From: Octopus sinensis
Taxonomy: Eukaryota
Assembly (NCBI RefSeq): GCF_006345805.1
Contig: NC_043001.1
Location: 88,040,001 to 88,104,000, forward strand
DNA length: 64,000 bases
Direction of reading: 5' to 3'
Part shown: positions 18,001 to 64,000 of the stretch, in pieces
Layout of the letters: each line of letters opens with the position of its first letter
Position numbering within the stretch: the first letter of the stretch is position 1
Position numbers: made by a program

Positions 18001-21000
18001 GGTGAGTTAATGAATACATGCTTGTATCATGTTTAAAACTTTCTCTTTGATCTTTCTTCTTTGACTTTCCTTTCATTATCTAATGATGATCACTTCTGCT
18101 GTGGAGCTTTATCTATCTCTACAAGTTCCTGTTCAGCTGATAGTTGTTCTTTTCATGGAAAACTTTAGCAATCTGAATAACCCTCTCATAACATGGTCTA
18201 TGACTGAGCATTGACCATCTTTTCTTCTTTTCATTAGTGTCTTCTTTTTTGAAGTACGCTTCTGATGATTTTAATTTGATTTAAACTTTTTTTTTATTTT
18301 TTCATACATTTATTCTTAGTTTATTTATTAACATTAAATTTCTATGGGTTGATTTATTGGTAATTGTTTATTTATATATGGTGTATGTATGTACTAAGTT
18401 TTTATTAATTAACTATATATAGCCCATTCCAAGTAGTTTTGTGATCTTGTAGCATTCTTTATATCCCTGGATTATCCCAAGCCTTGTGAGTGGATTTGAT
18501 AGATGTAAACTAATAGAAGTCTCTCATGTGTATATATGTGCATGCATGCATGCGTGCGTGTGTGTGTGTGTGTGTGTGTGTATGTTACATGGTAGTTGTG
18601 AGCAAATGTCACCATCATTTCAGTTTTCCGTGGAAAACATATCTAGTCATATTATACATATTATACACACATACATCGCTTCTTTCTTCCAAGGAATCTA
18701 ATGCTCTTAGCTTAGTTTTTGCATGGAGCTGGCCAGATTGGAGCAATCTCAAGAATAATTAGTCAAAATTGCAAGGATAATCTGGTACTTGACTGAGAAA
18801 AGAAAACTTCGAATGACCCGTCCTTGTTCTCTTTGTATTGTCTATCTGGATGTTTTGTTGTCCCTTTTTGTATCACCTAGCTGTCCAGATGTTTTGCATT
18901 CTTGTCCCATTTTGTGTTTATATATATATATATAGCAGTGTACGTACACTTCGGTCTCTTATATGTAAATATAAATGTGTGTTTGTCTGCTTGTATTTGT
19001 GCTTGTATTTATTTCTCACCACTTGATAACTCCTTCCAGTTTATGCCCCTATGACTTAGCAGTTAAGCAAAAAGACACTAACAAGATAAGTATTGAGTTT
19101 TATTTGAATGATTGAATTACTTCAAAGCAGTGCTCCAACTCTCCAACATTCCAGAATGGTTGCCAGACAATAAGTGAAACCTGTAATAGAAAGTCAAAGA
19201 AAAACAAATATATACATGCACACACTCGTACATGGTAATTGCTCCATCTTCACCAATGACTTCCACCTCTCTGAGCTTCCTTGTTGTCAATGGCATCTCT
19301 GACCATCTCTAAATGGTTTCTCACATGATTCTTCAATTCCACTGCAGAACTGAAATGCTTGGATTGAAGTACAAATGGCAGACGAAAGTCATAATATCCA
19401 CTAAATGCTTAGGTAAGGTTTATAATACAGAATGATTAATTAAACAAGTTAACTATAGCCTAGATTTACACAATAATATATATTTTTTTACTACCCACAA
19501 GGGGCTAAACACAGAGGGGACAAACAAGGACAGACAAACAGATTAAGTCGATTACATTGACTCCAGTGTGTAACTGGTACTTAATTTATCAATCCCGAAA
19601 GGATGAAAGGCTAAGTCGACCTCGGCCTAATTTGAACTCAGAACATAACGGCAGACGAAATACGGCTACGCATTTCGCCCGGCATGCTAATGTTTCTGCC
19701 AGCTCGCCACCTTTATTTACACAATAATATATTTTGAAATTATTTCAAGCTTACAATAAAGATTACTTTGCGAAATATGATTTCTGTGGGTCACCATAAT
19801 AAAATCAACTTACAGAATTGTCTTGCAAGTTGATTTTGGGTTTCTTCATTCATAATCAATTTGCAAGCTCTTTCACACACTAAAAATATACATAAACATA
19901 TACATAAATGTATGCATACATGTATACATATATTCATGCCTAATCTAAGATGGCAAGATATGTGACGTAGTTCTGTACTCAAGAAGACCCACCCACCACA
20001 ACAGAATTGATATCCTAAAACCAAGGTGCCATGTAAAAAGCATTGGTGTGGTTGCTGGTGCCACATAAAAAGCATTGGTGCTGGTGCCACATAAAAAGCA
20101 CTGGTGATGGTGCCACATAGAAAGCACCCAGTACATTCTATAAAGTCATTGACAATAGGAAGGGTATCCAGCTGTAGATGATAAGCTAAAACAAACTAAG
20201 GAACCTGGTGCAGCCCCTGGCCTTGCCAGTTCCTATCAAGCAATCCAATCCATATCAGCATGGAAAACTGATGTTAAATATTGCTGTTGATGATTGTTTG
20301 TTTGTTGAGCGAACGGTCTTTGTCCCAGAGCTCGCAAGATGGGAGAAGTCTGCAACATGGTCCTTTGCTATTCGTAAGACCCACAGAAGAGAAAGCAGGT
20401 CAACCCCCGACACCGAAAGCATCAACGGATGGATGAATGTGCATCCAGGCTCAGCGGTTGCGTAGGAAGTTGGGGACAAGAAACAGGAAGAAAGAGTGAA
20501 AGCTGGAATGAAAGAGTACAACAGGGGTCGTCATCACCCCCTGCCGGAGCCTCATGGAGCTTTAGATGTTTTCACTCAATAAACACACACAACTACCAGT
20601 CTGGGAATCGAAACCGCAATCCTCCGACCATGAGTCCACTGCCCTAACCATTGGGCCATTGCGCCTCCACTGCTGTTGATGATGATCATGATGACAATGA
20701 TGAATCAGAAGATTGCAGCTTTAAACTGTCAAAGATACAGTCAAAATATGTGAAACATTCATGACATGGAGTTCAGCCTGTAATAAAATCCACAAATGCA
20801 ATACCATCCATGCCAGTACTCATGTATACAAGAGTATGTACATACATGTGTTCATGTATTTGTATGCATACTTATTTATATGCATGCATGTATACAGATA
20901 TAAATTCATTTATACATACATGCATATATACATATATTAGCAGCTAAGCCCGGTTTCACCTGATCGGTTTGGATGATGTGACTGTAAAAACCTGCTCTGT

Positions 21001-63000: not shown

Positions 63001-64000
63001 ATATGTTATGTGTGTGTATGTAAAAGGGGGGTATGTGAAAGTATGTGTGTGTGTGTGTGTGTGTGTGTGTGTGTGTGTGTGTGTGTGCATGCGCAATGGA
63101 AGTGGGATGGTTCATCTTTGTTCGCTTAGTATTTGGGTTTATTTTTTGATTTGGTTGAATCTTGGTTTTCTTTTTGTTGATCAGTTATTTTTAGCGTTTT
63201 GACAGAAAAAGAAAAGTCATTCTAAAATTGTTTTTAACGTAAGCATGCCCAAACAAGTCAAATGCTTACACAGAGCAGGTTTTTACAGTCACATCATCCA
63301 AACCGATCAGGTGAAACCGGGCTTAGCTGCTAATATATGTATATATGCATGTATGTATAAATGAATTTATATCTGTATACATGCATGCATATAAATAAGT
63401 ATGCATACAAATACATGAACACATGTATGTACATACTCTTGTATACATGAGTACTGGCATGGATGGTATTGCATTTGTGGATTTTATTACAGGCTGAACT
63501 CCATGTCATGAATGTTTCACATATTTTGACTGTATCTTTGACAGTTTAAAGCTGCAATCTTCTGATTCATCATTGTCATCATGATCATCATCAACAGCAG
63601 TGGAGGCGCAATGGCCCAATGGTTAGGGCAGTGGACTCATGGTCGGAGGATTGCGGTTTCGATTCCCAGACTGGTAGTTGTGTGTGTTTATTGAGTGAAA
63701 ACATCTAAAGCTCCATGAGGCTCCGGCAGGGGGTGATGACGACCCCTGTTGTACTCTTTCATTCCAGCTTTCACTCTTTCTTCCTGTTTCTTGTCCCCAA
63801 CTTCCTACGCAACCGCTGAGCCTGGATGCACATTCATCCATCCGTTGATGCTTTCGGTGTCGGGGGTTGACCTGCTTTCTCTTCTGTGGGTCTTACGAAT
63901 AGCAAAGGACCATGTTGCAGACTTCTCCCATCTTGCGAGCTCTGGGACAAAGACCGTTCGCTCAACAAACAAACAATCATCAACAGCAATATTTAACATC

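What the first reader, a model, noticed from the sequence alone, without database searches (positions are those of the whole stretch)
20270..64000. Giant (>15 kb arms) near-identical inverted repeat around a 13-kb spacer
Seen: every element from 20270 to 35885 reappears reverse-complemented from 48891 to the window end. The arms are not identical. Substitutions include gttgtattg vs gttgtgttg (~32258), ctggcaaaa vs ctgtcaaaa (~32731), ggttgttc vs ggttattc (~33038), actctgcg vs actccgcg (~33802) and taggtgga vs taggagga (~22531). There are also homopolymer indels and repeat-number differences. Inference: it is either a very young inverted segmental duplication able to flip the spacer by recombination, or two haplotypes mis-joined by the assembler. 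Real substitutions argue against a single fold-back read, while homopolymer indels look like long-read consensus error.
Basis: partly seen in the sequence, partly recalled or inferred. Interest (0 to 1): 0.7.

Follow-up and report, generated by a model that had tools for sequence, protein, structure and literature searches.

The report
Large inverted duplication around 13-kb spacer
Two copies of at least 15 kb of transposon-rich, apparently gene-free DNA, probably from an octopus, face each other across 13 kb of unique sequence; the joint looks like a real chromosome rearrangement, but only the raw reads can show whether both copies sit on one chromosome.

Summary
Arm A (20270-35885) and arm B (48891-64000, reverse complement) match at 99.4% around a 13,005-bp non-palindromic spacer. 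The match runs to the last base of the window, so the outer end is unseen.

The arms differ in two ways. Sixteen one-base homopolymer indels are spread evenly and look like consensus noise. Twelve genuine substitutions lie almost entirely (11 of 12) in the inner quarter, and the two large unit-number differences lie in the inner 2 kb.

There is only one novel joint, at 48890|48891. It sits in a 48-nt hairpin palindrome and shares only 6 nt with the arm, too little for an assembler overlap. It resembles a fold-back or template-switch junction. The left boundary adjoins an older 1.3-kb head-to-head array of a 362-bp unit.

- **Best reading (about 0.55):** a real, young inverted duplication (palindrome).
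- **Main rival (about 0.27):** a heterozygous inversion of the spacer, with the assembler walking into the other haplotype.

The sequence alone cannot separate these two. No conserved genes were found in the arms, only transposon debris. Known kind; modest interest.

The parts
20270..35885 (+). Arm A of the inverted repeat (15,616 bp). Its left limit is only the mirror of the window end.
48891..64000 (-). Arm B (15,110 bp), the reverse complement of arm A. It runs off the window.
35886..48890 (.). Spacer, 13,005 bp, single copy in the window and not palindromic. It holds only dispersed repeats of at most 202 nt and microsatellites.
48849..48896 (.). 48-nt palindrome (24+24 nt, 1 mismatch, GAATTC at its centre) that straddles the only novel joint, 48890|48891. 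As single-stranded DNA it folds into a hairpin of -23.2 kcal/mol.
   Evidence: z-score -7.3; 0 of 200 shuffles fold as well
48891..48896 (.). ACACAA: both the last 6 nt of the palindrome and the first 6 nt of arm B (mirror of TTGTGT at 35880-35885). Inferred 6-nt microhomology at the joint.
   Evidence: read; the microhomology itself is inferred
35134..36414 (.). Head-to-head array of a 362-bp unit U at the left boundary: U(1-362), U(1-347) | rcU(148-1), rcU(362-1), rcU(362-301). The copies are 98.4-99.3% alike. This is an older, spacer-less local inverted duplication.
35833..35852 (+). Odd joint U347|rcU148 (2-nt CG overlap) in arm A. The same 20-mer occurs once more, at 48924-48943 on the minus strand in arm B, so this joint predates the big duplication.
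32249..34330 (.). Block holding 10 of the 12 non-microsatellite substitutions between the arms (mirror 52024-50069).
33821..34428 (.). 122-bp minisatellite: 5.0 copies in arm A, 4.0 copies in arm B (49971-50455).
25009..26256 (.). Nested local palindrome inside each arm (self-complementary at 98% over 1,251 columns; inner 438-nt arms 100% identical with a 27-nt loop). Mirror copy at 58022-59268.
28332..28883 (-). Gag-like ORF of 183 aa with a CCHC knuckle, inside the arm (mirror 55400-55951 +). It is the only arm ORF with any homologue found.
   Evidence: 2 hits, both Octopus bimaculoides UniRef entries, 54% and 65% identity; no Pfam hit
46376..48031 (+). Tc1/mariner-type element in the spacer: inverted ends 46376-46615 / 48031-47802 (84%) and a transposase ORF at 47014-47691.
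   Evidence: (DDE_3 1.7e-16, HTH_Tnp_Tc3_2 1.6e-7)

Best explanation
This is a real, young inverted duplication (a large palindrome) in a repeat-rich nuclear genome, probably a cephalopod's.

**Inferred mechanism.**
- A broken end or stalled replication fork arose at the hairpin-forming 48-nt palindrome at the right end of the present spacer.
- The free 3' end (...ACACAA) annealed to TTGTGT at 35880-35885, 13 kb behind it on the same strand or on the sister chromatid.
- That site lies next to a pre-existing 1.3-kb head-to-head array of a 362-bp unit.
- Synthesis then copied at least 15 kb in the reverse direction, giving A - spacer - A'.
- The opposite direction of copying (B to A through the 45-nt U(104-148) homology at 35841-35885) is equally allowed.

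**Later changes.**
- One arm lost one 362-bp unit and one 122-bp minisatellite unit.
- A 2-kb patch of substitutions separates the arms. Either it was never homogenised by arm-to-arm conversion or it was imported from an allele.
- Most one-base and microsatellite differences are consensus noise.

**Consequences.** No function is implied. The arms carry transposon debris only. [quoted passage not shown]

**Shown:** the anatomy, the joint and the spectrum of differences. **Inferred:** the mechanism, and that both arms lie on one chromosome.
For: 1. The arms and the non-palindromic 13,005-bp spacer lie in one gap-free stretch.
2. There is only one novel joint, 48890|48891.
 - Arm A runs on seamlessly through unit U into the spacer.
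 - Arm B stops at U position 104 against unrelated sequence.
3. At that joint the spacer and the arm share only ACACAA. Those bases complete a 48-nt palindrome. The chance that the palindrome reaches 6 nt into the arm is 4^-6, by my arithmetic. An overlap-based assembler has nothing there to join on.
4. The geometry fits sequenced human fold-back duplications (Hermetz 2014, PMC3907307, passages read).
 - Their spacers measured 766-70,466 bp.
 - 13 of their 21 junctions had 2-8 bp of inverted microhomology.
5. The substitutions look biological: 8 transitions to 4 transversions, and 11 of 12 in the inner quarter (p = 2e-6). The one-base indels are uniform, with 4 of 16 in that quarter. Arm B was therefore built from a template that truly differs from arm A.
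6. Arm B's single U unit has U2-type bases at 3 of 3 diagnostic columns. That makes it a clean one-unit deletion rather than scrambled sequence.
7. Both large unit-number differences lie in the inner 2 kb, the divergent block adjoins them, and an older fold-back joint sits at the same place. In primate X palindromes, rearrangements are likewise concentrated around the centre of symmetry (Jackson 2021, PMC8327919, passages).
8. The copies differ by about 0.08% in substitutions. That is far less than the haplotype divergence that Ko 2022 (PMC9516828, passages) describes as the usual cause of false duplications, and no gap lies between the copies.
Against: - No reads, depth or Hi-C data are available. 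Nothing shows that both joints lie on one molecule.
- The identity runs to the last base of the window. No outer boundary is seen, which is what a contig folding back on its other haplotype would also give.
- The homopolymer indels are one-sided. Arm B is the shorter copy at 13 of 16 sites (p = 0.021). At the one site that can be polarised, B is the odd one of four copies. This hints at weaker read support for arm B, which a true two-copy repeat does not predict.
- The bimodal divergence (about 0.5% in a 2-kb block, about 0.007% elsewhere) is not what steady arm-to-arm conversion predicts. It is as natural for two alleles.
- The near-identity of the outer arm may be technical, if reads could be assigned to an arm only within reach of the unique spacer.
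- The 6-nt microhomology rests on the palindrome's symmetry, because the pre-event sequence is unknown. An extension of the palindrome beyond 48 nt is not significant (150 of 2,000 shuffles score as well).
Confidence: 0.55

Rival explanations
1. The sequenced animal is heterozygous for a simple 13-kb inversion with breakpoints at 35885|35886 and 48890|Z. Each haplotype holds a single copy of A.

The assembler went A - spacer on one haplotype. It then followed reads of the other haplotype, whose A|inverted-spacer joint reads, in reverse, as spacer|rc(A). It continued down the second haplotype's copy of A. The joint is real, but the duplication is false.
For: - It gives exactly the same local sequence as a real duplication, including the microhomology joint.
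- It predicts arms with no outer boundary, and the identity does run to the window's last base.
- It explains block-wise differences as allelic variation next to a breakpoint.
- Unit-number differences in the minisatellite, the U array and the microsatellites are typical allelic variation.
- Unequal read support could give the 13:3 indel asymmetry.
- Haplotype-derived false duplications are the commonest kind reported (Ko 2022, PMC9516828).
Against: - It needs two things at once: a heterozygous inversion and a wrong walk through it.
- An assembly noisy enough to leave about one homopolymer error per kb cannot normally keep apart haplotypes that differ by 0.08% (my reasoning).
- The hallmark 'gaps between duplicated pairs' from Ko 2022 is absent.
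- The far side of the inversion (Z) is not seen in the window.
Confidence: 0.27
2. Arm B is an artefact of a chimeric molecule or read, or of assembly or polishing. This could be in-vitro template switching, a fold-back read, or an under-collapsed 'homotype' duplicate. In that case arm B has no counterpart of its own in the genome.
For: - Arm B looks like the poorer consensus: shorter at 13 of 16 homopolymer sites, and the odd one out at 25523.
- Amplification-derived palindromic chimeras are known in long reads (10.1101/173872; only the start of its abstract was seen, in the listing).
Against: - Strand-following or missed-adapter reads give no spacer. Here 13,005 bp of unique, non-palindromic sequence lie between the arms.
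- Random ligation would not join two points 13 kb apart in inverted order.
- A thinly covered arm should show an excess of indels toward the joint. The indels are uniform (4 of 16 in the inner quarter), while the substitutions (11 of 12) and clean whole-unit differences cluster there.
- Arm B's overall accuracy (99.4% identity to arm A) is far above that of single noisy reads.
Confidence: 0.1
3. The repeat belongs to a genome or element that carries inverted repeats by design: a plastid (IR-SSC-IR), a herpesvirus-like or poxvirus-like genome, or a giant transposon with very long terminal inverted repeats.
For: Only the geometry fits (long inverted repeats around about 13 kb of unique sequence) together with 37% G+C.
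Against: - No tRNA genes were found, and no family of Rfam's 4,227 models matched, rRNA included.
- Arms and spacer are a mosaic of microsatellites, dispersed short repeats and fragments of different transposons, as in nuclear DNA.
- The spacer ends have no terminal repeats of their own.
Confidence: 0.02

Closest known systems
Fold-back inverted duplications with a single-copy spacer (Hermetz et al. 2014, PLoS Genet, PMC3907307; passages read)
   Same: - An inverted copy separated from the original by an unduplicated spacer. Ours is 13,005 bp; theirs were 766-70,466 bp, and 20 of 21 were under 15 kb.
- A few bases of inverted microhomology at the spacer/inverted-copy joint. Ours is 6 nt; theirs were 2-8 bp in 13 of 21.
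- The other boundary is seamless.
   Different: - Theirs are de novo human events of 10 kb to 40 Mb, next to terminal deletions, translocations or rings. Here the far end is outside the window, so no deletion, telomere or translocation is known.
- The junction sequences in their supplement could not be seen.
Large near-identical palindromes of mammalian sex chromosomes (Jackson et al. 2021, PMC8327919, passages; Bonito et al. 2021, PMC8600007, passages; Swanepoel et al., 10.1101/800185, abstract start only)
   Same: - Arms longer than 8-10 kb, identity above 99%, in inverted orientation around a spacer (their spacers are 77 bp to 358 kb).
- Both large unit-number differences here lie in the inner 2 kb of the arm, next to the block of substitutions. 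There, rearrangements are concentrated around the centre of symmetry.
   Different: - Those palindromes carry testis-expressed gene families and are held alike by demonstrated gene conversion. Here no conserved gene was found in the arms.
- Conversion is not shown here, and the chromosome and species are unknown.
False (heterotype or homotype) duplications in assemblies (Ko et al. 2022, PMC9516828, passages)
   Same: Two near-identical copies close together on one sequence, with differences at the level of alleles plus read noise.
   Different: - No gap lies between the copies.
- Divergence is very low rather than unusually high.
- The orientation is inverted, around 13 kb of unique sequence.
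- The joint has no overlap substrate.
- Depth, k-mer and read-pair hallmarks could not be tested.
Short inverted templated insertions at repaired breaks (PMC11724301; only the abstract start in the listing was seen) and palindrome-induced breakage (recalled; no paper read)
   Same: A 24+24-nt inverted repeat lies exactly at the joint, and a 1.3-kb head-to-head array lies at the other boundary.
   Different: Nothing here shows that the 48-nt palindrome was made by the event rather than being present before it.

Membership tests
Large palindrome (sex-chromosome type) | Inverted repeat with arms >8 kb (Jackson 2021) or >10 kb (Swanepoel, abstract) | tested here: met
   Arms of 15,616 and 15,110 bp, both lower bounds
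Large palindrome (sex-chromosome type) | Arm-to-arm identity >99% | tested here: met
   99.40% counting gaps; 14 substitutions in 15.1-15.6 kb
Large palindrome (sex-chromosome type) | Both arms on one physical chromosome | not testable with these tools
   No reads, depth or Hi-C data are available; the only evidence is contiguity of the given sequence
Large palindrome (sex-chromosome type) | Arm-to-arm gene conversion keeps the arms alike | tested here: inconclusive
   There is 1 substitution in the outer 12 kb against 11 in the inner quarter. This fits patchy conversion, allelic blocks or read-assignment limits equally well.
Large palindrome (sex-chromosome type) | Arms carry protein-coding (often testis-expressed) gene families | tested here: not met
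   - 12 arm ORFs were scanned against Pfam (5, 7) and none matched.
- ORF 32023-32355 had 0 hits among 1.84 billion representatives.
- ORF 32603-32908 had 0 hits.
- Only a gag-like transposon ORF has relatives.
- Spliced genes with short exons were not modelled.
Fold-back inverted duplication | Unduplicated spacer between direct and inverted copy | tested here: met
   13,005 bp, not palindromic, within the 766-70,466 bp reported
Fold-back inverted duplication | Short inverted (micro)homology at the spacer/inverted-copy joint, with the other boundary seamless | tested here: met
   ACACAA at 48891-48896 pairs with TTGTGT at 35880-35885. Arm A continues through unit U into the spacer. The pre-event sequence is inferred from the palindrome.
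Fold-back inverted duplication | Far end of the inverted copy joined to a telomere, a translocation or a ring, with loss of distal sequence | not testable with these tools
   Arm B leaves the window at 64000
Heterotype false duplication | Half read depth on each copy and haplotype-specific k-mers | not testable with these tools
   No read data
Heterotype false duplication | Assembly gap between the duplicated pair | tested here: not met
   No N in the 64,000 bases
Fold-back read or missed-adapter artefact | Palindrome with no spacer, or only adapter, at its centre | tested here: not met
   The spacer is 13,005 bp of unique genomic-type sequence holding a Tc1 element and dispersed repeats
Organelle or viral inverted repeat | rRNA or tRNA genes, or dense coding sequence, in the repeat | tested here: not met
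   0 tRNAs; 0 Rfam families; 53 tandem-repeat rows

The most novel reading that the evidence does not exclude
The locus is a recombinationally active palindrome in a cephalopod genome, born by fold-back priming at a fragile, hairpin-forming site. That site had already undergone one earlier inverted duplication (the U347|rcU148 joint). [quoted passage not shown]

If true, this would be a breakpoint-resolved example, outside vertebrates, of the palindrome dynamics known from mammalian sex chromosomes. One literature search (four terms, at least three required) listed 10 of 97 papers, and none of those 10 contained the word 'cephalopod'. That is weak evidence that such a case is not yet in print.
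Probability: 0.12. Interest if true: 0.5.

Novelty: new member of a known kind. Interest (0 to 1): 0.3.

Why it matters
**If real.**
- It is a clean, base-resolved example of how a large palindrome is born: a hairpin at the break, 6-nt microhomology, a 13-kb loop, and an earlier fold-back scar at the same spot.
- It lies in an animal group where such structures have hardly been described.
- It marks a site where inversions and further rearrangements are to be expected.

**If an artefact.**
- It is at least 15 kb, and possibly much more, of falsely duplicated sequence.
- It also hides a 13-kb inversion polymorphism, which matters for anyone using this assembly.

Either way no gene is affected as far as could be seen, so the biological stakes are modest.

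Tried and rejected
- **Plastid, mitochondrial or viral repeat:** rejected. No tRNA genes and no Rfam match.
- **Longer palindrome at the joint:** I suspected that the 48-nt palindrome extends into a palindrome of about 110 nt made of U-like sequence on both sides. It is not significant (the 10-nt match is reached by 150 of 2,000 shuffles), so I dropped it.
- **The 36-nt palindrome core as a recurrent element or adapter:** it occurs only at 48855-48890 in the window. I recall no sequencing adapter like it, but that is recall only.
- **Genes in the arms:**
  - 20 ORFs were scanned against Pfam in two calls (12 in the arms, 2 in the spacer, 6 in the left flank). Only the spacer Tc1 ORF matched.
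  - ORF 32023-32355 found nothing among 1.84 billion representatives.
  - ORF 32603-32908 found nothing among longer proteins.
- **Species identification:**
  - The gag-like ORF gave 2 hits, both Octopus bimaculoides, at only 54% and 65% identity.
  - The Tc1 ORF gave 1,370 hits (120 listed). Two of those listed carry the source name 'transposase' and none names an organism; the best is 78% identical. This was of no use, and I did not pursue it.
  - The taxon is therefore only 'probably an octopod or cephalopod'.
- **Polarising differences with other repeat copies:** this was possible at one site only (25523).
- **Spacer as a mobile insertion into an older perfect palindrome:** rejected. It has no terminal repeats, its ends are unrelated to each other, and it is a mosaic of other repeats.
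- **Not checked:**
  - Genome contigs holds only bacteria and archaea, and I did not use it.
  - No eukaryotic genome or read collection was on hand, so no orthologous locus, second assembly or read depth could be examined.
  - Paper supplements, such as the junction sequences of Hermetz 2014, are closed.
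Full report
**1. The observation**

- The repeat finder tiles 20270-35885 against 64000-48891 with ungapped blocks of 96-100% complementarity.
- blastn of the window against itself gives 20270-34305 vs 64000-49971 at 99.40% over 14,056 columns (38 mismatches, 28 gap openings). It gives 35496-35885 vs 49280-48891 at 99.74%.
- Arm A is 15,616 bp, arm B 15,110 bp and the spacer 13,005 bp.
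- One correction: the match reaches the very last base of the window. So 20270 is only the mirror of 64000 and the outer ends of the arms are unseen.
- There is no N in the window.

**2. What kind of DNA this is**

- G+C is about 37%.
- There are no tRNA genes and no match to any of Rfam's 4,227 families. Tandem Repeats Finder returned 53 rows, mostly microsatellites.
- Several dispersed repeat families of 250-420 bp occur in the flank, the arms and the spacer alike.
- This is nuclear, transposon-rich DNA, not an organelle or a virus.
- The only Pfam match among 20 ORFs scanned in two calls is a Tc1/mariner transposase in the spacer, at 47014-47691: DDE_3 at 1.7e-16 and HTH_Tnp_Tc3_2 at 1.6e-7. 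Inverted ends flank it at 46376-46615 and 48031-47802.
- A gag-like ORF in the arm (28332-28883) has two homologues among longer proteins. Both are Octopus bimaculoides UniRef entries, at 54% and 65% identity. The source is therefore probably an octopod or other cephalopod, but the species is not established.
- Two other arm ORFs have no relatives at all.
- I found no conserved gene in the arms. Spliced genes with short exons were not modelled.

**3. How the arms differ**

A MAFFT alignment of arm A with the reverse complement of arm B gives 14 substitutions and 28 indel events. They fall into two classes.

*One-base indels: noise*
- 16 of the indels are of one base.
- 15 of the 16 lie in homopolymer runs of at least 3 bases, although only 19% of arm bases lie in such runs.
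- They are spread evenly, with 4 of 16 in the inner quarter.
- In the outer 12 kb there are 12 of them against one real substitution.
- Ten further indels are microsatellite or short-repeat length changes, which may be noise or real.

*Substitutions and whole-unit changes: real differences*
- Twelve substitutions lie outside microsatellite register shifts: 8 transitions and 4 transversions.
- 11 of the 12 lie in the inner quarter of the arm (binomial p = 2e-6), and 10 of them lie in 32249-34330.
- The two large differences also lie at the inner end. One is a single unit of a 122-bp minisatellite (5.0 vs 4.0 copies). The other is a single 362-bp unit plus 14 nt of (AT)n.
- The substitutions cluster while the indel noise does not. 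So arm B was built from a template that really differs from arm A, and is not a poorly covered re-read of the same locus.

*Unexplained*
- Arm B is the shorter copy at 13 of the 16 one-base sites (p = 0.021).
- At the only site that can be polarised, three of four copies of a nested palindrome have TTT and only arm B has TT.
- That hints at weaker read support for arm B.

**4. The boundaries**

A 362-bp unit, U, sits at the inner end of both arms.
- On the left the sequence reads (AT)n, U(1-362), U(1-347) | rcU(148-1), rcU(362-1), rcU(362-301), (TA)n.
- This is a head-to-head array of about 1.3 kb with no spacer, whose copies are 98.4-99.3% alike.
- Its odd joint, U347|rcU148 (2-nt CG overlap), occurs once in each arm and nowhere else. 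It is therefore older than the large duplication.
- Arm B has a single U. At 3 of 3 diagnostic columns it carries U2-type bases, so this is a clean one-unit deletion.
- Arm A runs on from rcU position 104 to position 103 without a break. The left 'boundary' is merely the place where arm B's homology stops.

The only novel joint is 48890|48891.
- There the arm meets unrelated spacer sequence inside a 48-nt palindrome (48849-48896; 24+24 nt, one mismatch).
- As single-stranded DNA it folds into a hairpin of -23.2 kcal/mol (z = -7.3; none of 200 shuffles folds as well).
- Its 36-nt core occurs nowhere else in the window.
- The last six bases of the palindrome, ACACAA, are also the first six bases of arm B, mirroring TTGTGT at 35880-35885.
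- I read this as 6-nt microhomology. The alternative, that the palindrome reaches six bases into the arm by chance, has probability 4^-6.
- A longer palindrome that I suspected is not significant.
- The spacer itself is not palindromic. It holds only dispersed repeats of up to 202 nt.

**5. What this excludes**

- **A missed-adapter read, or a read in which one strand follows the other.** These give a palindrome without a spacer.
- **Random ligation.** It would not join two points 13 kb apart in inverted order.
- **An overlap-based mis-join.** It needs hundreds of shared bases at the joint, and here there are six.
- **An organelle or viral repeat.** This is excluded.

The joint therefore existed in a real DNA molecule.

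**6. What remains**

Two models give exactly this sequence.

*(R) A real inverted duplication*
- A 3' end at the hairpin anneals 13 kb back and copies the arm in reverse. This could be a broken end folding back, or a nascent strand leaving a stalled fork.
- This is the geometry that Hermetz et al. (PMC3907307, passages) found in 21 sequenced human junctions.
  - Their spacers measured 766-70,466 bp (median 3,428).
  - 13 of their 21 junctions had 2-8 bp of inverted microhomology.
- The opposite direction of copying, using the 45-nt U(104-148) homology at 35841-35885, is equally possible.
- An earlier fold-back scar at the same place, and differences gathered toward the inner end of the arms, recall the finding that primate X palindromes rearrange mostly around their centre of symmetry (Jackson et al., PMC8327919, passages).

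*(H) A heterozygous simple inversion of the 13-kb spacer*
- Read backwards, the joint A|inverted-spacer of the other haplotype is spacer|rc(A).
- A walk that leaves the spacer through that joint runs down the other haplotype's copy of A. The contig then mirrors itself with no outer boundary.
- In this model the block of substitutions and the unit-number differences are allelic.

*Weighing the two*
- For R:
  - H needs two things at once, a heterozygous inversion and a wrong walk through it.
  - An assembly with about one homopolymer error per kb would normally collapse haplotypes that differ by 0.08%.
  - There is no gap between the copies, although Ko et al. (PMC9516828, passages) list gaps between the copies as a hallmark of false duplications on one scaffold.
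- For H, or another artefact:
  - No outer boundary is seen.
  - The indel asymmetry is one-sided.
  - The divergence is bimodal: about 0.5% in 2 kb and about 0.007% elsewhere. Steady gene conversion does not predict that.
- The near-identity of the outer arm may also be partly technical, if reads could be assigned to an arm only within reach of the unique spacer.
- My estimates are R 0.55, H 0.27, other artefact 0.10 and designed repeat 0.02. The rest is unassigned.

**7. Comparison with what is known, and novelty**

- By the published criteria this qualifies formally as a 'large palindrome'. The criteria are arms over 8 kb and identity over 99% (Jackson 2021), or over 10 kb (Swanepoel, abstract start).
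- It lacks the gene families typical of sex-chromosome palindromes. Gene conversion and physical linkage of the arms are not shown.
- It matches the fold-back class in the two features that could be tested, spacer and microhomology. The third feature, the fate of the far end, lies outside the window.
- It is therefore a new member of a known kind, or a mis-assembly built on a real inversion joint.
- One literature search for such structures in cephalopods listed 10 of 97 papers, none containing the word 'cephalopod'. That is weak evidence of absence.
- Interest is modest. The breakpoint anatomy is neat and the locus may be fragile, but no gene or function is involved and the central question needs read data.

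**8. What could not be done**

- No reads, depth, Hi-C data, second assembly or eukaryotic genome collection were available.
- Paper supplements are closed.
- The DUP-TRP/INV-DUP class and the work on palindrome-induced breaks are recalled, not read.

Noticed in passing
window 25009-26256 (mirror 58022-59268): A nested local palindrome lies inside each arm. It is self-complementary at 98% over 1,251 columns, and its inner 438-nt arms are 100% identical around a 27-nt loop. Its ORFs gave no Pfam hit. From memory they resemble mariner transposase fragments; this was not tested.
   Followed up: partly
window 4243-4638, 16005-16375, 17484-17892, 30097-30518, 44533-44911, 48259-48637, 53761-54182; partial copies at 142-441 and 45357-45605: A dispersed repeat family of about 400 bp, 80-89% alike, in both orientations and usually next to (AT)n or (AC)n runs. 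It is probably a SINE-like or MITE-like element. It occurs in flank, arms and spacer alike.
   Followed up: no
window 10731-11127, 20303-20674, 38084-38474, 63596-63967; also 22711-23022, 40159-40471, 61249-61563: Two further dispersed repeat families (82-91% alike) are shared between the left flank, the arms and the spacer.
   Followed up: no
window 9256-9674: A self-complementary stretch of 430 columns at 91.6% lies in the left flank: another local palindrome.
   Followed up: no
window 12921-13502 (-): A 194-aa ORF has no Pfam hit at E <= 0.01. Its nearest Atlas clusters (score 0.97) are eukaryotic 'hypothetical proteins', of which 13-18% of members carry GIY-YIG. That is a lead to a GIY-YIG-bearing retroelement remnant.
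   Followed up: partly
window 46376-48031: A Tc1/mariner element lies in the spacer. Its transposase ORF is 225 aa, and the best database relatives are 338 aa at 78% identity, so it is probably truncated. It has inverted ends of about 240 nt.
   Followed up: partly
arms, 16 sites between 23080 and 34438: Arm B is the shorter copy at 13 of 16 one-base homopolymer differences (p = 0.021). A one-sided error pattern is not predicted by either main model.
   Followed up: partly
window 1394-1648 and 21485-21945 (mirror 62325-62785): Long (TATG)n/(ATAC)n arrays lie in the left flank and in the arms, about 78% alike to each other. They account for many of the weak self-matches.
   Followed up: no
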